Notes: generated by a model not told the origin, from the letters alone. A DNA stretch of 51,014 nucleotides from Escherichia phage tiwna (NC_054896.1); one strand, 5' to 3'; counted from the stretch's first letter, positions 5,633-48,184 are shown. Translations and numbers: made by a program.

Positions 5633-6160
5633 ATGGCTAAAAACGTTGAGCCTGCTGTAAAGGCATTAAATTTCAAAGAGTTATACAATAAAACTTATGG
5701 CGATATTGTTACGCTAAACAACCGCCACAAGTACACGCCGGAACAGGTTTTTGATATGGCGATCCGCTATTTCACTTGGGCCGAAGAGAATCACATCCAG
5801 GCGGCTGAAACTGCTTCCTTTCAGGGTGACGTGTACGAGAGCAGAGTTTACAAGCCTCGCGTTTTCACGGTTAACGGATTCAGCTTGTATCTCGGCGTGA
5901 CTGAGGCCGCCGTAAGCAAATGGCGTAAAGAGCCTGGATTCTGCGATGTGATGGAGTTTGTTGATAAAGTAATTTACGAGCAAAAATTCCAGCTTGCGGC
6001 AAATAACATGATTAATGCTGGATTTATCGGTAAAGAGATCGGAGTAGAGAAGCCAGCAACAGTGAGCGTTGAAGCGAGCGCGGCAGCTAATGAAAGCATT
6101 GACGCAGTAACTGCCGATGAGGTGAAAGAGGCTGTGATTGATATTCTGGAGCAACTTTAA
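5633..6160 (+). CDS. terS: terminase small subunit
   Basis: Position immediately upstream of and overlapping terL; RBS aaaggagg; size about 175 aa. Confidence 0.6.
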   Translation: MAKNVEPAVKALNFKELYNKTYGDIVTLNNRHKYTPEQVFDMAIRYFTWAEENHIQAAETASFQGDVYESRVYKPRVFTVNGFSLYLGVTEAAVSKWRKEPGFCDVMEFVDKVIYEQKFQLAANNMINAGFIGKEIGVEKPATVSVEASAAANESIDAVTADEVKEAVIDILEQL

Positions 6161-12325: not shown

Positions 12326-12351
12326 CTAATAGCATAAAAAAACATTGCACG

Positions 12352-12368
12352 TTTAACAAAAAGTGCTA
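12352..12368 (-). promoter_or_regulatory. conserved palindromic box, inverted copy inside the late operon
   Basis: TTTAACAAAAAGTGCTAT, directly upstream of a terminator-like hairpin and the major capsid RBS. Confidence 0.4.
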
Positions 12369-12374
12369 TCATCT

Positions 12375-16100: not shown

Positions 16101-16119
16101 TTTTAACAAAAAGTGCTAT
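16101..16119 (-). promoter_or_regulatory. conserved palindromic box, inverted copy abutting the chaperone RBS
   Basis: TTTTAACAAAAAGTGCTAT immediately followed by AAGGAG and ATG 16134. Confidence 0.4.
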
Positions 16120-20666: not shown

Positions 20667-21397
20667 TGATTAGTGCAAAAATTAAACTTGAAATAATGCA
20701 GCACGTTAAAGAGGAATACCCTAAAGAGGCTTGCGGCGTCATAACTCAAAAGTCACGGGTACAGAAATATCACCGCATAACCAACGTGCATGACGATCCA
20801 GAAAATCATTTTGAAATGGACGCTGTAGAATACGCTGAATCGCTCGACAAAGGCGAATTAATCGCGGTGGTGCATTCCCATTGCGGGGATGGTGCTAGTA
20901 CGATACCGAGCGCGCACGACTCATGTATGTGCGATGAAATGGGTGTGTCGTGGATTATAGTTTCATGGCCCGAAGGTGATATGAGAATTGTCGAGCCGCA
21001 GGAGAGGCCGCTTATCGGTCGCCCGTGGTCGCTTGGGTCGTTCGATTGCTGGGGTCTTATCATGGCGTGGCATAAACAGCACGGAATAGTATTGAATGAC
21101 TTCCGAAAGCCTTACGAGTGGTGGAAGTCAGAATATGGTGAAAATCTTTACCATGATAATTATTTGAAAGAGGGATTTGTTGAAACTAACGAGCCTCCAA
21201 AACCTGGTGATATGGTGATTATGCAGCTATCATCGCCAGTCTGGAATCATGCGGGGATTTATTTGGGTAACAATCAGCTATTACATCATGCGTTTGGAAA
21301 GCTATCTCGCATTGACTTGTATTCTGGATGGTATCAGGAGCACACTGTAAAAATTTGCCGACATAAGGATCTGAAATATGACATTGAAAGTAATTAA
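20666..21397 (+). CDS. tail tip assembly protein (lambda K-like; JAB/MPN plus NlpC/P60 domains)
   Basis: HSHCGDG...SAHD (JAMM-like) and CWGLIMAWHKQ (NlpC/P60 Cys); ATG 20666 overlaps the L stop; the track ORF at 20564 is an upstream extension. Confidence 0.65.
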   Translation: MISAKIKLEIMQHVKEEYPKEACGVITQKSRVQKYHRITNVHDDPENHFEMDAVEYAESLDKGELIAVVHSHCGDGASTIPSAHDSCMCDEMGVSWIIVSWPEGDMRIVEPQERPLIGRPWSLGSFDCWGLIMAWHKQHGIVLNDFRKPYEWWKSEYGENLYHDNYLKEGFVETNEPPKPGDMVIMQLSSPVWNHAGIYLGNNQLLHHAFGKLSRIDLYSGWYQEHTVKICRHKDLKYDIESN

Positions 21398-26123: not shown

Positions 26124-26402
26124 TCACCCCCAAAAAGTATATATATATCTTGAATCAGATCCAGAAAGCCCACTCCATGTAACGGTGTCGCCACTTACCC
26201 CTAAGTTTGGTGCTCCAGGGTCGCCACCACGCCAGGAATTCATGCCAACATATATTGCTTTCAATGATTTACCTGGCGGCCTGTTTTGGTAAGTCTTGCT
26301 ACCTGATGGCTGAGTGAATTTATCAAGGAAGAAAACAGGCGTTAAAAGTCCTGTAACTTCCCTTCCTCGATCGTCATATATTGCATAACCATATTGCGCC
26401 AT
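26124..26402 (-). CDS. hypothetical protein (92 aa)
   Basis: GAGGTG RBS; TAATG overlap with the lipoprotein gene. Confidence 0.5.
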   Translation of the reverse strand: MAQYGYAIYDDRGREVTGLLTPVFFLDKFTQPSGSKTYQNRPPGKSLKAIYVGMNSWRGGDPGAPNLGVSGDTVTWSGLSGSDSRYIYTFWG

Positions 26403-26671
26403 TAATTACACCTCAAATCAATAAATTTACTTTCATTTTGCCAACGGTTGATAAATTTAACTTCTTTATTGTCAACGCTCAACCTGTATTGCTTTTGGCT
26501 GAATCTGTTTTCGCGTACTGCATTAATTTTAACTTCATGGAATCCGTTAACAGGGAATGTTTTAACGTTAAATTTTGCCGTGCAGTCGATCTCATTGAAG
26601 TTGCCAGTAGGAGACGCTGCGCACCCGGTCAGAGCGGCTACGGTGGCGATAACTGCGATTATTTTTTTCAT
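26402..26671 (-). CDS. small lipoprotein, candidate Cor-like superinfection-exclusion protein
   Basis: Signal peptide with lipobox LTGC (MKKIIAVIATVAALTGC); AGGAG RBS; located downstream of the tail tip genes. Confidence 0.5.
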   Translation of the reverse strand: MKKIIAVIATVAALTGCAASPTGNFNEIDCTAKFNVKTFPVNGFHEVKINAVRENRFSQKQYRLSVDNKEVKFINRWQNESKFIDLRCN

Positions 26672-26727
26672 CTTCAATACTCCTTAGTTGTCGTTGTCTG
26701 TAACTATACACGATCCGACAAGCGGCG

Positions 26728-26744
26728 TTTAGCAAAAAGTGCTA
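26728..26744 (-). promoter_or_regulatory. conserved palindromic box (minus orientation) with -10 at 26703-26708
   Basis: TAGCACTTTTTGCTAAA on the minus strand, 19 bp from TATAGT, upstream of the lipoprotein operon. Confidence 0.5.
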
Positions 26745-26854
26745 CTTGTTATTTTTTGTTTTTCGGTGTTATCGAATTTAAGACGGCGTAAATTTAGCGC
26801 AAATTTTAGCCAACATAAGGGCAATAAACAATCAATAAAATAGATATATACATA

Positions 26855-27060
26855 TAAAATCAATAGTTTATTTATTTATGTATGTATATTTGTTTTTTCT
26901 TGTTATCTGTGTTTCTTGTGGTTTTGGTTGTTTGTGGTGATTTTTCTTTCTGAGTATCTGTATGTGCCATCATTCATGTGTATGTATATAATCCGGCGTA
27001 TCTGAGAGAACAAGGGAACAAGAAAAATAACACATATTAATCATTGACTTACGTTTCAAA
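26855..27060. repeat. GT-rich strand-biased noncoding region A, homologous to 47395-47660
   Basis: Shared blocks ttatttatttat, ttgttatct, gtatctgtatgtg and gggaacaagaaaaa; top strand almost devoid of C over about 80 bp. Confidence 0.5.
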
Positions 27061-27114
27061 TTTGTTTTATTGCAATCTAAGAACGTTTAGAAAACAGAAA
27101 AAACAAAACAACTA

Positions 27115-27142
27115 TTGACTAAATCAACCAAATGGCTACAAT
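27115..27142 (+). promoter_or_regulatory. sigma70-like promoter (TTGACT-16-TACAAT) for the recombination module
   Basis: -35 at 27115-27120 and -10 at 27137-27142, about 30 nt before the exonuclease RBS. Confidence 0.5.
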
Positions 27143-27172
27143 GCACACACAAAGCAACAAGGAGCATCAAAG

Positions 27173-28561: not shown

Positions 28562-29218
<657 letters not shown>

Positions 29219-31985: not shown

Positions 31986-32915
31986 TTATAGCAGTGATTC
32001 GGGCTTGTATAGTTTTCTTTCTACGCCCTGTTTAAAATTATCGTTAACAGGCATCATTATGTCAAGACCTCTTTCCTCTGCCGCGATTATCACATCACGA
32101 TCATCTTTCCGGCAGATTACGCGCATTCTTCTTTCTCCTTTATATCTATGCGCAACCATTTCAAGATTTGAAGGAGTAAAGCAAGCCCACACTTCTTGAC
32201 CAGTTGATAAATGAACATGCTGGGAATCAACCCAATCAAGGCACAAATAGATCGTCTTATCTGTGCTACCTGTTTTAACAACAGATCCGCGCGTGTAGTC
32301 GCGAGCTAAAAACCAATCCTTTCCATCCTCATCAATGAAAAGCACGTTACACATTTCATCATCAAGCCCGTCATCATGCACCAAGTGACAAGGTAGCGCG
32401 TGAATGTATCGACCATCCTTGACGCCGCAATCATAATGACAACCTTCCGGCGGATATATCCCCTCATAAACGCTTAAAGGTGTGCGATCGAATTTTAATG
32501 TTTTTGCCATCACTTTTTCGCAGCATTCATGACTTGCCTGTTTCCCGAACGAGTAACCAGAAGAACGCGAAGCGCGCTTGTTTGCTCTGATCCTGTAATC
32601 CTGCGGCACTTTTCCGAGGAAGCGGCCCAAAATGTTGATGGCCTCGCTGTAAGGTTCGCCAGTTAATTTCATTAACCAACCGATCCCCGTGTCGTTACCG
32701 CATACGTTGCAGATCGCGCCGCCGTCGCCCTCTTCATTTAGCTTATCAGTCCATCTAAAACGATCCTTACCGCCGCAGTGTGGGCAAGGCTGATGCTTTT
32801 TGTTGAAAACATCGCTATGCAGTCCGCAAATGCTTTGTAGTGCTTCACGCCATAACCCCTTCATATATGGCAAAACATCTTCTTTCTGATAGGTCATAAA
32901 GTTTTCAGTATTCAT
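31986..32915 (-). CDS. DNA primase-like zinc-binding protein
   Basis: CPHCGG-x18-CNVCGN zinc-ribbon pair; ATG 32915 follows a terminator, so the track's upstream extension is rejected; adjacent to the helicase. Confidence 0.45.
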   Translation of the reverse strand: MNTENFMTYQKEDVLPYMKGLWREALQSICGLHSDVFNKKHQPCPHCGGKDRFRWTDKLNEEGDGGAICNVCGNDTGIGWLMKLTGEPYSEAINILGRFLGKVPQDYRIRANKRASRSSGYSFGKQASHECCEKVMAKTLKFDRTPLSVYEGIYPPEGCHYDCGVKDGRYIHALPCHLVHDDGLDDEMCNVLFIDEDGKDWFLARDYTRGSVVKTGSTDKTIYLCLDWVDSQHVHLSTGQEVWACFTPSNLEMVAHRYKGERRMRVICRKDDRDVIIAAEERGLDIMMPVNDNFKQGVERKLYKPESLL

Positions 32916-32925
32916 GGCAAACCTC

Positions 32926-32963
32926 AATAAAAAAGCCCAGCAAATATTATCATTTCGCTGGGC
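32926..32963 (-). terminator. rho-independent terminator after the HTH gene
   Basis: Hairpin gcccagc...gctgggc with a T-run on the minus strand. Confidence 0.55.
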
Positions 32964-32970
32964 CTTATCA

Positions 32971-33447
32971 TTAGCTATTCGTGCTGTTATCACCTTTGTA
33001 GAATCTTCCGCCTGGTTCGTAGTCTGAATTTTTGACTACGCGCAACATTTCGTATTTGTCGCAACGGGTAGTAAGAGGCTTGCCGTTAGAATCAAACCGC
33101 AGATCTGGACGACAAAACGAGGCGCGGTATCCTTTGCATCCATTATATTTGTAGTCGTTATGCACCTTTTGTGCTCCAGCGGCTGAAATCATACCACGCT
33201 TTCGCCACTGGTTAACGACTTGCTGAGATACGCGCAGACGTCGAGCCATAGCAGGAACACCGCCGTAATACTCGATCAGAATGTCAAGGCGAGATTTTAG
33301 GCTTGCTTTTACCTCATCTCGCAGGATAAGAAATCCGGTTCGGTGTTTTCGTGGCTTTTTGTCTTTACCTCGTCGCGTTCCGTTGTTACCGTTAATAGTG
33401 CGCTTGTCGATCTCACCCGTAGACACTGCAATTCGTGCATCTTTCAT
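32971..33447 (-). CDS. putative DNA-binding protein (HTH)
   Basis: Candidate HTH segment AMARRLRVSQQVVNQWRKRG; basic N-terminus; divergent from the helicase gene. Confidence 0.45.
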   Translation of the reverse strand: MKDARIAVSTGEIDKRTINGNNGTRRGKDKKPRKHRTGFLILRDEVKASLKSRLDILIEYYGGVPAMARRLRVSQQVVNQWRKRGMISAAGAQKVHNDYKYNGCKGYRASFCRPDLRFDSNGKPLTTRCDKYEMLRVVKNSDYEPGGRFYKGDNSTNS

Positions 33448-35532: not shown

Positions 35533-35951
35533 TGGCTATAACTGATAAAGGCGATTATCTTGAGTTTTACGAAAGGGATCCAACCGACACGAGAAGGGAA
35601 GTTAATCACCAGATAGATAGTTTTCAGTGGTTGACTTATGCTCATCCTTATTTGCTGGCGTGGCATACGGTAAACGAGAATGAGAAGTCTAAAGCAACGG
35701 CGATGATTGATCAGCAGTCCGGCTTGGTTAAGGGAGTAAGCGATTTCATCATCCTGATTGGTTTAAACGGAAAATACCCCTTTGCAGCGATTGAGATCAA
35801 ACGAGTGAATAAATCAGGCAAGGGGAAAGCATCACCAGTCAGCGATGAACAAAAGGCTTTTTTGCGTCGCGTTCGCAGCTTAGGAGGATTCGCTGCGGTA
35901 GCCTACGGATTCAATCAGTTTAAGTTGGCTATTGAATACATGCTTAAATAG
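35532..35951 (+). CDS. VRR-NUC domain nuclease
   Basis: Motifs AIEIKR (E.K) and QKAFLRRVRSLGG typical of VRR-NUC; ATG overlaps the helicase stop. Confidence 0.5.
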   Translation: MAITDKGDYLEFYERDPTDTRREVNHQIDSFQWLTYAHPYLLAWHTVNENEKSKATAMIDQQSGLVKGVSDFIILIGLNGKYPFAAIEIKRVNKSGKGKASPVSDEQKAFLRRVRSLGGFAAVAYGFNQFKLAIEYMLK

Positions 35952-35966
35952 CACTTTTTGTTAAAA
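35949..35966 (+). promoter_or_regulatory. conserved box with -10 CATAAT at 35986-35991
   Basis: TAGCACTTTTTGTTAAAA; TAG is the stop codon of the upstream gene. Confidence 0.5.
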
Positions 35967-40470: not shown

Positions 40471-40792
40471 CGCCCATCTCCCCTATTCTCGCCATATCCC
40501 TGATCCAGTCGTTGCGCATACCATCCAGGCTATACAATTCGAATCCGAAAGGCCGCTTTGACGATCCTTTGGACCAGTATTTACCGCAGACCCCATCTAT
40601 ATAGCCAGCCGTCATCATTCTTGCGCAAAATTCCTTAGATGCAAGGCTGGCGAACATTCGCGGCGTAAGTCCGGCGGCCCGTGCGAGCCGCTCACATTCT
40701 CTATGCTGATAGATAAATTTGGCTATGTGCTGCCTGTTAAACCAGTCGTATGACTCACACCATTTATACAGATCAAGCAAAAACATAATCAT
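40397..40792 (-). CDS. hypothetical protein (131 aa)
   Basis: ATGA coupling to the upstream ATPase gene. Confidence 0.45.
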   Translation of the reverse strand: MIMFLLDLYKWCESYDWFNRQHIAKFIYQHRECERLARAAGLTPRMFASLASKEFCARMMTAGYIDGVCGKYWSKGSSKRPFGFELYSLDGMRNDWIRDMARIGEMGDDELFQAKANRQDLEALRRKFNIT

Positions 40793-42369
40793 CCCAGCAG
40801 TATTGGATTGACAAAAATAACACCATTAATAACACAAACATAATTTCTTTCTTCCAGCATTGGCAGCAAGTGCCCTTCTATCCTCTTCATTACGCCAGCT
40901 TGACCAACGAAAGGTTTTACCTTTCTCGCTGATTCGTACAGGGCGCGAATATTCAGAATCCCTTTATTAGCCTTGCCGTGTCTAGTGATCAATTCAATCA
41001 ATTTGCCCATTTCAGCATCATCACCAGCATAACCAGAAGCATTGGCGGCGCTAATGTATGTTTTGCTCAATTCCTGAAACATGATCAGCGCCTCTTGCAT
41101 TGTTTCCACGTCGATCTCTTTCGACTTCTGCTGGTATCCAGCAGGATTAAACCAGTTGCGGATAACATGCAGGACGGAAGCAAGCCTGATCACCTGTTTA
41201 TCCATTTTACCCAGCGCACCGCGTAACATTGTATGAGAATACTTTCCGCCGTCTGCAAGATGCGGTTCCATATCCTGGCGAGCAATGTTGAGCACTCGCA
41301 TAGCTGAACGGCTTATTTTCAGCGATATATTTGATTCGCTCATGATGTTATGCACCAATTGATAATATTGGGCCTTCAATTCAGGATCCACCGCCTCATA
41401 GGTAGAATCACCATTTTCATCAATGAATGAGCGACGGCCTAAGAATGATTCCTCACGGACCAACAAAAAGCGCTCACTCACACCGATACCGCGCGATCCA
41501 GCGTCCATGATTCCGCTTATCGTTTCATCCTGGGCTATAACGCTCATACATCCAAGCGCGCGAAAACTCATGTTATTGTCAGCATTAGCACGGGCGATTG
41601 ATACGTGACCATTATCCCACGCCTTAAGCACTAGCTCGCTGTTAGTCTTCCTTTCGCTATTGGCATAGGTCAAGCCTAACAGGCTGTTAATACTTGTTGC
41701 TTCGTCAGATATTACGGCAAAGTTACCTTGCTTGTTGTTGATTTTCGCCAAGCCTTCTGGAGTTGTATCTGAAACAGGGAAAGTTATATCACACATTTTT
41801 TCCAGCTTCTCCTCCAGATCCTCTTTTTCCTGGTATAGAGATTCCATATCAGCGCCTGATCTTTCGCTTTTCATCTCCTTTGCAAGACCTGCCAACTTTG
41901 CCTGTATTTTCTTTCTTTCCTTGCGGCGTTGCTCGTTGATCTTCTCAACTTCCGCAATCATCGGAGCAATAGCCATGCTGTTGATCGCAGATTTACCAGT
42001 TGACGGCGGCTGGCTTGTAACGACGTAAAGCGCAGTCGGCTGATCGGTCCCGTGATAGTCAACCGTAAAGCGTCCAAGCATGGCGGCAGAAATGCAGCCG
42101 ATAAAGTGCATGTAAGCCGATGATTCAGGGAATTGAACGGATCGCGCAATGCTGCGTGATAACTTTCCGACAACATCAATATCATTACCAAGAGAAATTA
42201 CGGGGTAGCGATCGTGACCGCTATTTACATCCTTCACGTCGCCCCAAAAGCTGGACGACTGGCGATAGCCGTTAGCCTGAATTGATACGCGAACTGGTGA
42301 AAGGTTCTGGCTTTCAGCCATAGCGATTATTTGCTGTGGAGTTAATTTGTTCGTTTCTAATGAAAACAT
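40789..42369 (-). CDS. P-loop NTPase of unknown function (526 aa)
   Basis: Walker A SQPPSTGKSAI and Walker B-like FAVISDEA; GGAG RBS; first gene after the promoter box at 42423. Confidence 0.5.
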   Translation of the reverse strand: MFSLETNKLTPQQIIAMAESQNLSPVRVSIQANGYRQSSSFWGDVKDVNSGHDRYPVISLGNDIDVVGKLSRSIARSVQFPESSAYMHFIGCISAAMLGRFTVDYHGTDQPTALYVVTSQPPSTGKSAINSMAIAPMIAEVEKINEQRRKERKKIQAKLAGLAKEMKSERSGADMESLYQEKEDLEEKLEKMCDITFPVSDTTPEGLAKINNKQGNFAVISDEATSINSLLGLTYANSERKTNSELVLKAWDNGHVSIARANADNNMSFRALGCMSVIAQDETISGIMDAGSRGIGVSERFLLVREESFLGRRSFIDENGDSTYEAVDPELKAQYYQLVHNIMSESNISLKISRSAMRVLNIARQDMEPHLADGGKYSHTMLRGALGKMDKQVIRLASVLHVIRNWFNPAGYQQKSKEIDVETMQEALIMFQELSKTYISAANASGYAGDDAEMGKLIELITRHGKANKGILNIRALYESARKVKPFVGQAGVMKRIEGHLLPMLEERNYVCVINGVIFVNPILLG

Positions 42370-47046: not shown

Positions 47047-47105
47047 TGCTATCTCCTGAGCGGTTCGTTTTGATGTGTGTAATGTACCCGATCAGGTGGC
47101 CTGAG

Positions 47106-47124
47106 TTTTAACAAAAAGTGCTAT
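47106..47124 (-). promoter_or_regulatory. conserved box, minus orientation, with -10 at 47081-47086
   Basis: TAGCACTTTTTGTTAAAA then 19 bp then TACATT. Confidence 0.5.
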
Positions 47125-47394
47125 TTGACGGTTAGCGCCAGGATTGTGATCGAAATAATCAAAAGTAATCATTCGTAATCAAATCACGTCAAAATGATGA
47201 TTGCCTTTGCAAATTTGATGAGAAAAGCAATCACGTTTAATCATTGGTTGCAGGGGAGATAGTGAAACCTTCCCCTCTCGCCTCAATTTTCCGCCTGGCT
47301 GTCAGTGGTTGTTATGTTCCGTTCCCGCCTGTTCTTTTGTTGACCTTCCGCAAAATACGATAACAAAAAATAACAAACAATACCTATATAATAC

Positions 47395-47660
47395 ATTGAA
47401 AAATAAGGATTATTTATTTATATGTATCTATATATTCTCTTTTGTTATCTTGGTTATTGTGGTATTTGGTGGGGTATATAGTTTTTGTGTATCTGTATGT
47501 GTGTATGGGTATGTAGGGGCATATATATCTATATGGCACTTTCCGCGAGAAAACTTCGATAACAGGCAATGATAACATTGATTTATAAGGAAAAATAACG
47601 CCTATATTGTTATTGTGCCACCATGTAAAATTGATAAAACACGCGGGAACAAGAAAAAAC
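47395..47660. repeat. GT-rich strand-biased noncoding region B, homologous to 26855-27060
   Basis: Shared blocks ttatttatttat, ttgttatct, gtatctgtatgtg and gggaacaagaaaaa; G-runs ggtgggg and gtagggg. Confidence 0.5.
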
Positions 47661-47662
47661 AG

Positions 47663-47691
47663 TTGACACATTAAATAGCATTATTGATAAT
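47663..47691 (+). promoter_or_regulatory. near-consensus sigma70 promoter (TTGACA-17-GATAAT)
   Basis: -35 at 47663-47668 and -10 at 47686-47691, about 28 nt before the AGGAGG RBS of gene 47720. Confidence 0.6.
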
Positions 47692-47719
47692 GCCCACACC
47701 TAACAACCAGGAGGCAGAA

Positions 47720-48184
47720 ATGAGCGAGCAATCATTCACTGACACGCTGCGCCGTGCCGCTATTATGCTGGCTAATGGCGAGGAAGAGACGATCAAGATT
47801 CCTGACGCGTATTTGCAGGTCCACATGTTCGGCAAGAAGTCGGCAAGCAATCCGGCGGCCTACATTCGCCAGATCATGAGTCGAGTGCCAGAAGTCGCCG
47901 AGCGGGGGCGCGTATCCGTTACCCGTGGCGTTTACGGGCCGGAAGATGAAAACTTCGGTAGCACTTTCTACGAGGTGCGGATTGTTGAAGGCCGTCGCAA
48001 GGTTTACAACAAAGAGGCACTGGAAAGGGCAGTACGCCAGGCTAAGCGCAAGGTTGCAGAGGCGATCATTGATATGTCACCCAACCTGGCAAACTATGCG
48101 CCGGAAGAGTACGAAACATTATCAAAGGCCGTCGCTGACTTTCACGCGATGATCAAAAAAACTTTCCTGGAGGATGAGCAATGA
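47720..48184 (+). CDS. hypothetical protein (154 aa), likely immediate-early
   Basis: Consensus promoter plus AGGAGG RBS; internal ATG of track ORF 47684. Confidence 0.55.
   Translation: MSEQSFTDTLRRAAIMLANGEEETIKIPDAYLQVHMFGKKSASNPAAYIRQIMSRVPEVAERGRVSVTRGVYGPEDENFGSTFYEVRIVEGRRKVYNKEALERAVRQAKRKVAEAIIDMSPNLANYAPEEYETLSKAVADFHAMIKKTFLEDEQ

What the first reader, a model, noticed from the sequence alone, without database searches (positions are those of the whole stretch)
26855..27145. Homologous GT-rich noncoding hub A at a divergent-transcription switch point (candidate origin or early control region)
About 430 bp of noncoding DNA separates the leftward lipoprotein operon from the rightward recombination module. 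It contains a T/G-only tract nearly devoid of C (about 26880-26965), TGTATGTAT repeats, an IHF-like site (AATCAAtagtTTA near 26858), and a strong sigma70 promoter (27115-27142). It shares ordered sequence blocks with a second region at 47395-47660. Two copies of one noncoding module about 20 kb apart in a compact genome suggest a shared function such as a replication origin, host-factor binding, or a non-B DNA structure.
Basis: seen in the sequence. Interest (0 to 1): 0.65.

Follow-up and report, generated by a model that had tools for sequence, protein, structure and literature searches.

The report
Twin DNA-unwinding modules in T1-like phage
This T1-like coliphage carries two homologous, non-coding copies of a module (the easiest-to-melt DNA in the genome next to a G/T-only tract whose single strands cannot fold), each upstream of a strong early promoter; this is the best candidate so far for the unknown replication origins of T1-like phages, but it could instead be an early-promoter control region.

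Summary
The window is a Warwickvirus (Drexlerviridae), 99.5% identical to phage NorthRox. A module of about 180 bp occurs exactly twice, at 26819-27000 and 47362-47540. The alignment scores z = 12-21 against dinucleotide shuffles. The same two-copy layout is found in Hanrivervirus and Tlsvirus, and in degenerate form in T1.

It is not a protein gene, a structured RNA, phased-A-tract curved DNA, Chi or a DnaA-box cluster, and it is not the known 21-nt ATAGCAC repeat.

Three properties stand out:
- The TA-rich left part of each copy is one of the two least stable duplex segments of the whole genome, in all four genomes tested.
- In this phage the G/T tracts are the only 100-nt windows whose two single strands have no predicted structure.
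- Within the genus the tract evolves about ten times slower than synonymous sites.

Each copy lies 150-300 bp upstream of a near-consensus sigma-70 promoter, among short AACA-core boxes. Hub B also holds the position equivalent to the mapped pac end of TLS and T1. The phage encodes a primase and an MCM-like helicase with a C-terminal winged helix.

Best reading: paired unwinding and loading modules, that is, candidate origins comparable to SPP1 oriL/oriR (confidence 0.4). The main rival is a supercoil-sensitive control region for the early promoters (0.33).

The parts
26727..26745 (-). ATAGCAC-type 21-nt repeat, the leftward promoter-associated element of the cor/lipoprotein operon. It marks the left boundary of hub A and is not part of the module.
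   Evidence: Motif scan. The repeat family is described in TLS (PMC11447400).
26747..26772 (-). Two TGTTAT boxes (26747-26752 and 26767-26772) within an A-rich box (AACAAAAAATAACA on the minus strand).
   Evidence: ATAACA/TGTTAT occurs 11 times in the hubs against 1.1 expected.
26819..27000 (+). Module copy A (the whole homologous unit).
   Evidence: nhmmer E = 4e-33. 96-100% identical in 63 Warwickvirus records. Forms an island of conservation in the footprint.
26835..26890 (.). TA-rich core, the least stable duplex of the whole window (DUE-like). It contains the chance-level IHF core match at 26858-26870 and an imperfect A-rich/T-rich dyad.
   Evidence: Nearest-neighbour stability in 40-bp windows: minimum at 26835, -0.935 kcal/mol per step against -1.364 +/- 0.100. 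Inverted repeat 26827-26859 / 26872-26904, not above composition-matched shuffles. IHF test.
26866..26966 (+). G/T tract A (62 T, 22 G, 11 A, 6 C). Both single strands are predicted to have no structure. Contains one inverted box, TGTTAT, at 26901-26906.
   Evidence: Divergence within the genus is 0.010 against 0.097 at third codon positions of exo.
26977..26992 (.). Right TA/TG border (TGTGTATGTATATAAT), followed by the conserved CCGGCGTA.
   Evidence: Divergence 0.000 in four Warwickvirus genomes.
27008..27032 (+). Right-flank boxes: GAACAAG twice, plus ATAACA.
27092..27142 (+). A-rich box (27092-27106) and a near-consensus sigma-70 promoter, TTGACT-16-TACAAT (27115-27142), for exoVIII-Erf-SSB.
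   Evidence: Strongly conserved across genera.
47106..47124 (-). ATAGCAC-type repeat, the leftward promoter-associated element of the early/helicase operon. It marks the left boundary of hub B.
47140..47280 (.). pac-equivalent segment: a cluster of TAATCA/AATCAC/TGATGATT boxes (47156-47243) and a hairpin (47253-47275). Position 1 of the TLS and haarsle records, and the start of the T1 terminal repeat, map to this part of hub B.
   Evidence: TLS has a HindIII site at 5876, matching the published pac-to-HindIII distance of about 5882 bp.
47310..47375 (.). Left boxes of hub B: TGTTAT/TGTTC (47310-47334), then ATAACA twice (47360-47375).
   Evidence: Direct repeat with the right flank, z = 3.5.
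47362..47540 (+). Module copy B (the whole homologous unit).
   Evidence: nhmmer E = 7e-32. Pairwise alignment.
47385..47435 (.). TATATAAT (47385-47392) and the TA-rich core, the second least stable duplex of the window.
   Evidence: 40-bp minimum at 47395, -0.963. The TATAAT-like hexamer is conserved in most modules of three subfamilies.
47410..47520 (+). G/T tract B (58 T, 28 G, 19 A, 6 C). Both single strands are predicted to have no structure. Contains one inverted box, TGTTAT, at 47443-47448.
47558..47577 (+). Right-flank boxes: GATAACA twice.
47648..47691 (+). A-rich box AACAAGAAAAAACA (47648-47661) and a near-consensus sigma-70 promoter, TTGACA-17-GATAAT (47663-47691), for the rightward early genes.
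47720..48184 (+). First gene downstream of hub B, a DUF7174 protein of unknown function. It is exchanged together with hub B as a cassette.
   Evidence: Only 23% identical to its counterpart in Jahat (same genus) but 60% identical to that of haarsle (another genus).
40789..42369 (-). Candidate trans factor: an MCM-like AAA+ helicase (DUF3987) with a C-terminal winged helix.
31986..33447 (-). Candidate trans factors: a zinc-ribbon primase (31986-32993) and a Cro/YdaS-like helix-turn-helix protein (32971-33447).

Best explanation
Each hub contains a cis-acting DNA-unwinding module, and the pair most likely serve as the phage's replication origins (ori-like sites).

Proposed mechanism:
1. After circularisation, the DNA becomes negatively supercoiled. 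The adjacent near-consensus sigma-70 promoter transcribes away from the module and adds to this; in this phage the divergent leftward promoter does too. (Inferred.)
2. This stress opens the TA-rich core, which is the least stable duplex in the genome. (The stability is shown; the opening is inferred.)
3. The bubble spreads into the adjoining ~100-bp G/T tract. Its separated strands (G/T-only and A/C-only) cannot pair with themselves, so they stay single-stranded. (The lack of structure is shown for this phage; the spreading is inferred.)
4. This offers a loading platform for the phage's MCM-like helicase, zinc-ribbon primase and SSB. These are positioned by a protein bound to the short AACA-core boxes flanking the core. 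Candidates are the helicase's own winged helix, the Cro-like helix-turn-helix protein, or DUF7174. (Inferred.)

Shown here: homology of the two copies, two copies per genome, the stability and structure properties, purifying selection, and the nature of the helicase. Every functional step is inferred.
For: - Copy number: exactly two homologous copies per genome in three Tempevirinae genera, with weak hits at the same two loci in T1.
- Duplex stability: the two least stable 40-bp and 100-bp duplex windows of the whole genome are the two hubs, in the window, TLS, haarsle and T1.
- Single strands: the G/T tracts are the only 100-nt windows with a predicted ssDNA folding energy of 0.0 on both strands, against a genome value of -9.3 +/- 3.4.
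- Selection: the tract plus its right border diverges 0.000-0.010 within the genus, against 0.097 at synonymous-like sites. Neighbouring non-coding DNA diverges 0.07-0.11.
- Repeats: short AACA-core boxes are enriched in the hubs and differ by lineage (ATAACA 11 against 1.1 expected; GTTACA in T1; GTGAAC in TLS). Internal and cross-hub k-mer repeats are in excess, z = 3-11.
- Replication proteins: the phage encodes a primase and an MCM-like helicase with an ORC/Cdc6-like winged helix. No origin is known for T1-like phages (PMC7718038; PMC11447400).
- Not a gene or RNA: no conserved ORF, no stable RNA fold and no Rfam match.
Against: - There are no functional data of any kind.
- The boxes are 6-8-mers, not regular 17-22-bp iterons. 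Their excess is partly a composition effect.
- Hub A and hub B boxes do not clearly co-vary within genomes.
- Dyad symmetry around the core is significant in only 4 of 8 hubs.
- The structure-free single-strand property is strong here but only partial in TLS and haarsle and weak in T1.
- AT-rich, easily melted DNA is also typical upstream of strong promoters.
- The module keeps a fixed orientation and distance relative to the downstream promoter. That fits a promoter-linked role at least as well.
- GC skew only follows gene orientation.
Confidence: 0.4

Rival explanations
1. The module is an upstream control region of the two immediate-early host-type promoters, with no role in replication. 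It would act as a supercoil-sensitive, easily melted sink (a stress-induced duplex destabilisation site, as in the IHF-dependent activation of ilvPG). It would also act as a landing pad for a phage regulator (the Cro-like helix-turn-helix protein or DUF7174) and/or host nucleoid proteins. Together these would tune or shut off early transcription.
For: - Each module lies at a conserved distance (about -150 to -300) and in a conserved orientation upstream of a near-consensus sigma-70 promoter.
- Only about three such intergenic promoters are reported in TLS.
- In TLS, hub A keeps the module without a divergent partner, so the module travels with the rightward promoter.
- Boxes run right up to the -35 (47648-47661; 27092-27106).
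- The phage encodes a Cro/YdaS-like protein.
- Hub B and its first downstream gene are exchanged as one cassette, like an immunity or operator module.
Against: - The module lies outside the range of UP elements.
- T-tracts show no helical phasing.
- The IHF match is at chance level.
- Near-perfect conservation of 135 bp at -150 to -300 and selection for structure-free single strands are not expected of a simple upstream activating region.
Confidence: 0.33
2. The conserved TATAAT-like hexamer at the left edge is an activator-dependent promoter. It has no -35, and a box lies 11-13 bp upstream, as in T4 middle promoters. It would read rightward and give either an unstructured U/G-rich leader for the downstream operon, or an RNA that primes replication as at T4 oriF/oriG.
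For: - The TATAAT-like hexamer is conserved in most modules of three subfamilies.
- An AACA box ends 11-13 nt upstream of it.
- The easily melted DNA lies immediately downstream.
Against: - There is no -35 and no extended -10.
- Hub A of this phage and of haarsle has only TATACA/TATAAA there.
- The RNA would be U-rich, giving weak rU:dA hybrids.
- The RNA folds are no better than shuffles (z = -0.7 and -0.5).
- No transcript data exist in the searchable literature.
Confidence: 0.08
3. The module is an accessory site for packaging or recombination. It could be a pacR-like bend or wrapping region for the small terminase next to pac, with hub A as a secondary site. Alternatively it could be a G/T-rich hotspot for strand-annealing proteins.
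For: - The mapped pac end of TLS and the start of the T1 terminal repeat lie in hub B, about 110-250 bp left of the module.
- Hub A abuts the exoVIII-Erf-SSB operon.
- From my own knowledge, not tested here: G/T-rich ssDNA is a preferred RecA substrate.
Against: - Hub A has no cluster of pac-type TAATCA boxes, and no second packaging start is documented.
- Hub B is not next to recombination genes.
- There is no Chi or Chi-like site in either hub.
Confidence: 0.07
4. The tracts encode small hydrophobic peptides, for example MYVYLFFLVICVSCGFGCLW from 26878 and MYLYILFCYLGYCGIWWGI from 47421.
For: - ATG-initiated ORFs of 13-29 codons beginning M-Y-(L/V/I) exist in 7 of 13 modules examined.
- NorthRox annotators called small CDSs here.
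Against: - There is no start codon, or only a 3-5-codon ORF, in haarsle A and B, TLS A and B, and L132/L133.
- There is no convincing ribosome-binding site.
- All six frames are open because the composition lacks stop codons.
- No peptide is conserved.
- The NorthRox CDSs are on the opposite strand.
Confidence: 0.03
5. The module is a functionless AT-rich spacer or mosaic junction, left over from duplication of a promoter cassette.
For: Hub B is a boundary of cassette exchange.
Against: - It is kept as a pair at the same two loci across subfamilies.
- Within the genus it evolves ten times slower than synonymous sites.
- Its extreme physical properties recur in four genomes.
Confidence: 0.04

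Closest known systems
Bacillus phage SPP1 oriL / oriR
   Same: Two homologous cis regions in one roughly 45-50 kb lytic pac-type siphovirus genome, kilobases apart. Each combines short repeats with an AT-rich unwinding element, and one lies in a long intergenic region with transcription signals (PMC6316719).
   Different: - SPP1 repeats are defined binding sites of a known origin-binding protein (gp38), and the helicase is DnaB-type with a loader.
- Here no initiator is known, the boxes are shorter and irregular, and the helicase is MCM-like.
- The long G/T-only tract has no SPP1 counterpart.
- Function is proven for SPP1 and untested here.
Satellite phage P4 ori / crr (from my own knowledge; not verified in the library)
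   Same: Two separated cis regions carrying the same short repeats, both needed for replication by a primase-helicase that binds them through a C-terminal winged-helix domain. T1-type primases are annotated as similar to the P4 alpha family.
   Different: - In this phage the primase and helicase are separate proteins.
- The helicase shows no sequence match to any solved structure, including the P4 alpha domain. By fold it is MCM-like.
- No octamer iteron arrays are present.
Phage T4 oriF/oriG and the phage T7 primary origin (from my own knowledge)
   Same: A promoter combined with an adjacent AT-rich unwinding element, with initiation coupled to transcription.
   Different: - In those origins the unwinding element is downstream of the promoter and the transcript primes synthesis.
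- Here the strong promoter points away from the module.
- The only candidate inward promoter is a -10-like hexamer without a -35. RNA made from it would form weak U-rich hybrids.
Upstream stress-induced duplex destabilisation sites and UP elements of strong bacterial promoters, such as ilvPG UAS1 with IHF or rrn P1 (from my own knowledge)
   Same: Easily melted AT-rich DNA upstream of a strong promoter, and A-rich boxes next to the -35.
   Different: - The module lies at -150 to -300.
- It is 180 bp long.
- It is strand-skewed (G+T 0.78-0.83) and nearly invariant within the genus.
- IHF involvement is not supported.
The 21-nt ATAGCACnnnTTGnTAAAA repeats of T1-like phages (PMC11447400)
   Same: A repeated non-coding element of the same phage family with unknown function. 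One copy borders each hub.
   Different: It is a different sequence, with 23 copies in the window against 2 for the module. It lies next to almost every operon, and it is not part of the module.

Membership tests
Replication origin of the repeats-plus-DUE type (SPP1 oriL/oriR, lambda ori) | AT-rich DNA unwinding element of low duplex stability | tested here: met
   The two hubs are the two least stable 40-bp and 100-bp windows in all four genomes.
Replication origin of the repeats-plus-DUE type (SPP1 oriL/oriR, lambda ori) | Array of repeated initiator-binding sites (iterons) next to the DUE | tested here: inconclusive
   AACA-core 6-8-mers are enriched in the hubs and differ by lineage, with an excess of k-mer repeats. 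They are short and irregular, there is no clear hub A / hub B co-variation, and dyad symmetry holds in only 4 of 8 hubs.
Replication origin of the repeats-plus-DUE type (SPP1 oriL/oriR, lambda ori) | Cognate origin-binding protein encoded by the phage | tested here: inconclusive
   Candidates exist: the winged helix of the MCM-like helicase, the Cro-like helix-turn-helix protein and DUF7174. Binding cannot be tested here.
Replication origin of the repeats-plus-DUE type (SPP1 oriL/oriR, lambda ori) | Initiation of DNA synthesis at the site (marker-frequency peak, ori-dependent plasmid replication) | not testable with these tools
   No read-depth or experimental data are available. GC skew only follows gene orientation.
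Host DnaA-dependent origin (oriC-like) | Cluster of DnaA boxes (TTATNCACA) | tested here: not met
   One 1-mismatch site per hub. The window total of 39 is below the shuffle expectation of 51.8.
T4 oriF/oriG-type origin (activator-dependent promoter with a downstream DUE) | Promoter with a -10 but no -35 and an activator box near -30, reading into the DUE | tested here: inconclusive
   The TATAAT-like hexamer with an AACA box 11-13 nt upstream is conserved in most modules. It is absent as TATAAT in hub A of this phage. There are no transcript data.
Sigma-70 UP element / upstream activating region | A/T-rich element at about -40 to -60 contacting RNA polymerase | tested here: not met
   This is met only by the separate A-rich boxes at 27092-27106 and 47648-47661. 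The module itself lies at about -150 to -300.
Intrinsically curved DNA (phased A/T tracts) | A/T tracts repeated at about 10-11 bp | tested here: not met
   No spectral peak at 10-11 bp across 12 modules; values are below the shuffle controls.
IHF binding site | Match to WATCAANNNNTTR that is above chance and conserved | tested here: not met
   One match in hub A. The window has 5 against 3.75 expected. Hub B has none, and the site is degenerate in several genera.
Structured non-coding RNA | Fold more stable than shuffles, or a match to an RNA family | tested here: not met
   Fold z-scores are -0.68, -0.48 and +0.14. Rfam finds nothing at gathering threshold, and nothing meaningful at E <= 1.
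Small protein gene | ORF with a start codon and frame conserved among relatives | tested here: not met
   All frames are open because of the composition. The start codon is missing in 6 of 13 modules, and no peptide is conserved.
pac site of T1-like phages | Coincides with the mapped packaging end | tested here: not met
   Position 1 of TLS and the T1 terminal repeat map to the left part of hub B (window about 47140-47280), outside the module. Hub A has no equivalent.
Chi / RecBCD hotspot | GCTGGTGG | tested here: not met
   The window has no exact Chi site and neither hub has a 1-mismatch site.
ATAGCAC 21-nt repeat family of T1-like phages | aaATAGCACnnnTTGnTAAAA consensus | tested here: not met
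   Copies lie at 26727-26745 and 47106-47124, outside the module.

The most novel reading that the evidence does not exclude
The two modules are the long-sought replication origins of T1-like phages, and they work by a logic closer to archaeal, eukaryotic and SF3-helicase viral origins than to lambda or oriC. Inverted AACA boxes would flank the genome's weakest duplex. They would position an MCM-like helicase, through its ORC/Cdc6-like winged helix, for loading onto a strand-skewed, structure-free G/T platform. Opening would be driven by the supercoiling output of the adjacent immediate-early promoter.
Probability: 0.2. Interest if true: 0.75.

Novelty: new variant of a known kind. Interest (0 to 1): 0.55.

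Why it matters
T1 is one of the seven classical T phages, and Drexlerviridae are among the commonest coliphages isolated. They contaminate fermentations and are also candidates for therapy. Even so, papers on the family state that no origin of replication has been found (PMC7718038, PMC11447400), and the temporal control of transcription is unknown.

A conserved pair of cis modules with extreme and measurable physical properties gives a concrete target that can be deleted. That makes both questions directly testable. If the modules are origins, they would also be a tractable bacterial-virus model for how an MCM-like helicase is loaded, and useful parts for engineering or rebooting these phages. 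If they are only promoter-control regions, the finding is still a useful annotation: it removes spurious small CDSs from the hubs and locates the early promoters and the pac-proximal region.

Tried and rejected
- Collection scan with the pattern TTATTTATTN{18,28}TTGTTATCT. It returned only chance AT-rich matches in unrelated viruses and was useless.
- Protein coding. Rejected.
- Structured RNA or a known RNA family. Rejected. I did not run a covariation analysis, because the G/T tract aligns poorly between genera and the folds were no better than shuffles.
- Phased A-tract curvature. Rejected.
- IHF site as a defining feature. At chance level.
- DnaA boxes and Chi. Absent.
- GC skew as an origin indicator. 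It only mirrors gene orientation.
- Homology of the Cro-like protein or the helicase to the P4 alpha origin-binding domain by sequence. None found.
- Single-sequence AlphaFold model of the helicase. pLDDT was 38 and the model was unusable; the run was repeated with an alignment.
- Concerted evolution of hub A and hub B boxes within genomes. No diagonal signal.
- Direct repeats flanking the core. Significant in hub B (z = 3.5) but not in hub A.
- Dyad symmetry around the weakest point. Significant in only 4 of 8 hubs.
- Copies in E. coli genomes or plasmids, such as satellites borrowing the element. None found.
- DUF7174 against solved structures. Nothing found.
- Literature on T1-like transcription start sites, origins or this module. 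Nothing describes it. The T1 genome paper of 2004 is not held, so an earlier mention there cannot be excluded. One search for a P4 iteron sequence returned only primer lists.

Full report
**What the window is.** The 51-kb window is a complete or nearly complete genome of a T1-like siphovirus. The hub A region is 99.5% identical to Escherichia phage NorthRox (Drexlerviridae, Tempevirinae, Warwickvirus), and 93 phage records match it. Hub A (26672-27172, 501 bp) separates the leftward cor/outer-membrane-protein operon from the rightward exoVIII-Erf-SSB operon. Hub B (47047-47719, 673 bp) separates the leftward early operon, which ends with the helicase, from the rightward block of small early genes that runs on to the terminase.

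**Checking the observation.** The similarity between the hubs is well above chance. Local alignment of the cores scores 68, against 23.3 +/- 3.7 for dinucleotide-preserving shuffles. The whole intergenic regions score 82 against 23.3 +/- 2.8. The repeat finder links the two regions independently, as families D8 and D18. A profile built from modules of several genera hits the window exactly twice, at 26819-27000 and 47362-47540 (E about 1e-32). It likewise hits haarsle (Hanrivervirus) and TLS (Tlsvirus) exactly twice each, always upstream of recE and in the gap between the divergent early operons. T1 gives only weak hits, but at the same two places. The G/T tracts are the two highest G+T peaks of the window, 0.83 and 0.78 against 0.50 +/- 0.06.

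**What it is not.**
- Not a protein gene. All six frames are open, simply because the composition lacks stop codons. The ATG that starts a hydrophobic "MY(L/V)Y..." ORF is missing or followed by an early stop in 6 of 13 modules, there is no convincing ribosome-binding site, and no peptide is conserved. The small CDSs annotated there in NorthRox are over-calls.
- Not a structured RNA. Either strand folds no better than shuffles (z = -0.68, -0.48, +0.14), and Rfam gives nothing.
- Not phased-A-tract curved DNA.
- Not a cluster of DnaA boxes or a Chi site.
- Not the known 21-nt ATAGCAC repeat, which only borders each hub (PMC11447400).
- The IHF core match at 26858 is one of five in the window against 3.75 expected. 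Hub B has none.
- Nothing similar exists in 5,426 E. coli genomes or 72,556 plasmids.

**Anatomy.** Alignment across genera gives a common order:
1. an A-rich AACA box or boxes;
2. a TATAAT-like hexamer;
3. a TA-rich core of about 50 bp with the conserved TTATTTATTTATATGTATCTAT;
4. a G/T tract of about 100 bp with an inverted box near its start;
5. a TA/TG border and CCGGCG/CCGC;
6. more AACA boxes;
7. an A-rich box;
8. a near-consensus sigma-70 promoter (27115-27142 and 47663-47691).

The boxes differ by lineage: ATAACA in this phage and haarsle (11 and 13 in the hubs against about 1.2 expected), GTGAAC/GAACAA in TLS, and GTTACA/TAACAC in T1. The hubs contain more internal and shared k-mers than shuffles (z = 3-11), although local composition contributes to that. 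In TLS, hub A lies between two rightward genes. The module therefore travels with the rightward promoter, not with a divergent switch.

**Physical properties.** With nearest-neighbour parameters, the two least stable 40-bp and 100-bp duplex windows of the entire genome are the two hubs in all four genomes examined, including T1. In the window the minima lie at 26835 and 47395, more than 4 sd from the mean. This is the most general property of the element. With DNA folding parameters, the 100-nt windows at 26861-26960 and 47421-47520 are the only ones in the window whose plus and minus strands both have a predicted folding energy of 0.0 kcal/mol. The genome values are -9.3 +/- 3.4 and -8.6 +/- 3.3. 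A G/T-only strand and its A/C-only complement have almost nothing to pair with. This second property is partly shared by TLS (ranks 1 and 5) and haarsle (hub A rank 2, hub B not in the top 8), and is weak in T1. It is therefore an elaboration within Tempevirinae rather than a feature of the whole family.

**Selection.** Among four other Warwickvirus genomes, the G/T tract and its right border diverge by 0.010 and 0.000. Third codon positions of exoVIII diverge by 0.097, and the adjacent non-coding DNA by 0.07-0.11. The 201-bp core is 96-100% identical in 63 records. Against Jahat and haarsle the tract diverges by 0.29, compared with 0.48 at third positions. The sequence is therefore constrained, not just the composition. 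Hub B, in contrast, comes in variants: 14 records are at least 95% identical and the rest 60-90%. It is exchanged together with its first downstream gene, a DUF7174 protein that is 23% identical between two phages of the same genus but 60% identical to the haarsle protein.

**Context.** Position 1 of the T1 record is the start of the 2.8-kb terminal repeat. Position 1 of TLS is the deduced pac sequence AGATTT, and the HindIII site at 5876 fits the published distance of about 5,882 bp from pac to HindIII. Both positions lie in the left part of hub B. The equivalent stretch in the window is about 47140-47280, which has TAATCA boxes and a hairpin and lies about 110 bp left of the module. Hub B is therefore a composite of pac, the module and an early promoter. 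Hub A has the module and a promoter only.

**Interpretation.** The module looks like DNA selected to open and to stay open. The process that most obviously needs this, and for which the phage brings its own helicase and primase but no known site, is initiation of replication. A two-copy arrangement with repeats plus an AT-rich unwinding element has a documented precedent in SPP1 oriL/oriR. From my own knowledge, P4 ori/crr is another. I therefore rank [quoted passage not shown] first, at 0.4.

The main rival (0.33) is that the same physical properties serve to control the two immediate-early promoters. It is favoured by the fixed orientation and distance to the promoter, by boxes reaching the -35, by the Cro-like protein, and by the cassette behaviour of hub B. 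Weaker alternatives are:
- an activator-dependent promoter with a U-rich leader or primer RNA (0.08);
- a packaging or recombination accessory site (0.07);
- a functionless spacer (0.04);
- small peptide genes (0.03).

Several supporting details turned out weak and are reported as such. Hub A and hub B boxes show no clear co-variation within genomes. Flanking direct repeats are significant only in hub B. Dyad symmetry is significant in only half of the hubs.

**Verdict.** The element is real, conserved, undescribed in the accessible literature and physically distinctive, but its function is inferred only. I class it as a new variant of a known kind (an origin or control region with an unwinding element) and score interest at 0.55.

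Noticed in passing
window 47140-47280: The left part of hub B carries a cluster of TAATCA/AATCAC/TGATGATT boxes and a hairpin (47253-47275). This is the position that corresponds to base 1 of the TLS and haarsle records and to the start of the T1 terminal repeat, so it is the probable pac region of this phage.
   Followed up: partly
window, 23 sites, e.g. 532-550, 35948-35966, 47106-47124; odd ones at 12351-12369 and 16101-16119: The known ATAGCACnnnTTGnTAAAA repeat occurs 23 times (up to 3 mismatches). It is usually followed by a GC-rich hairpin and a CATAAT-like hexamer. Two copies lie on the minus strand inside the rightward late operon, contrary to the 'always in the direction of transcription' rule reported for TLS.
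   Followed up: no
[not shown]
   Followed up: partly
window 47720-48184 (+) and L174 49168-49629: The first gene after hub B (DUF7174, phrog_4841) holds that position in all genera. It is only 23% identical between two Warwickviruses yet 60% identical to the Hanrivervirus version. Hub B and this gene move as one cassette.
   Followed up: partly
L001 (NorthRox) 20771-21101 and 41266-41759, equal to window 26729-27059 and about 47178-47671: Six small 'hypothetical protein' CDSs are annotated on the minus strand inside the two hubs. They are not conserved and are almost certainly gene-caller artefacts caused by stop-poor composition.
   Followed up: yes
window 32065-32037 (-) and 29163-29192 (+): Two further 11-of-12 sigma-70 consensus matches lie inside coding DNA. 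One is in the 3' end of the primase gene and reads toward the tail-fibre gene. The other is at the end of erf, upstream of ssb.
   Followed up: no
MN158217.1 (phage BEC3) base 1 = window 26883; MK552105.1 (Jahat) last base = left edge of the hub B module: Some deposited genomes of this genus begin or end inside the modules. This suggests that assemblies or authors break the circular map there, and it may reflect repeat-induced or low-coverage breaks.
   Followed up: no
window 26124-26671 compared with Jahat and haarsle: The cor-like and outer-membrane-protein genes left of hub A are only 3-4% divergent from Jahat and haarsle, while the adjacent hub and the exo gene are 24-40% divergent. This points to a recent horizontal exchange of the superinfection-exclusion cassette, ending at hub A.
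   Followed up: no
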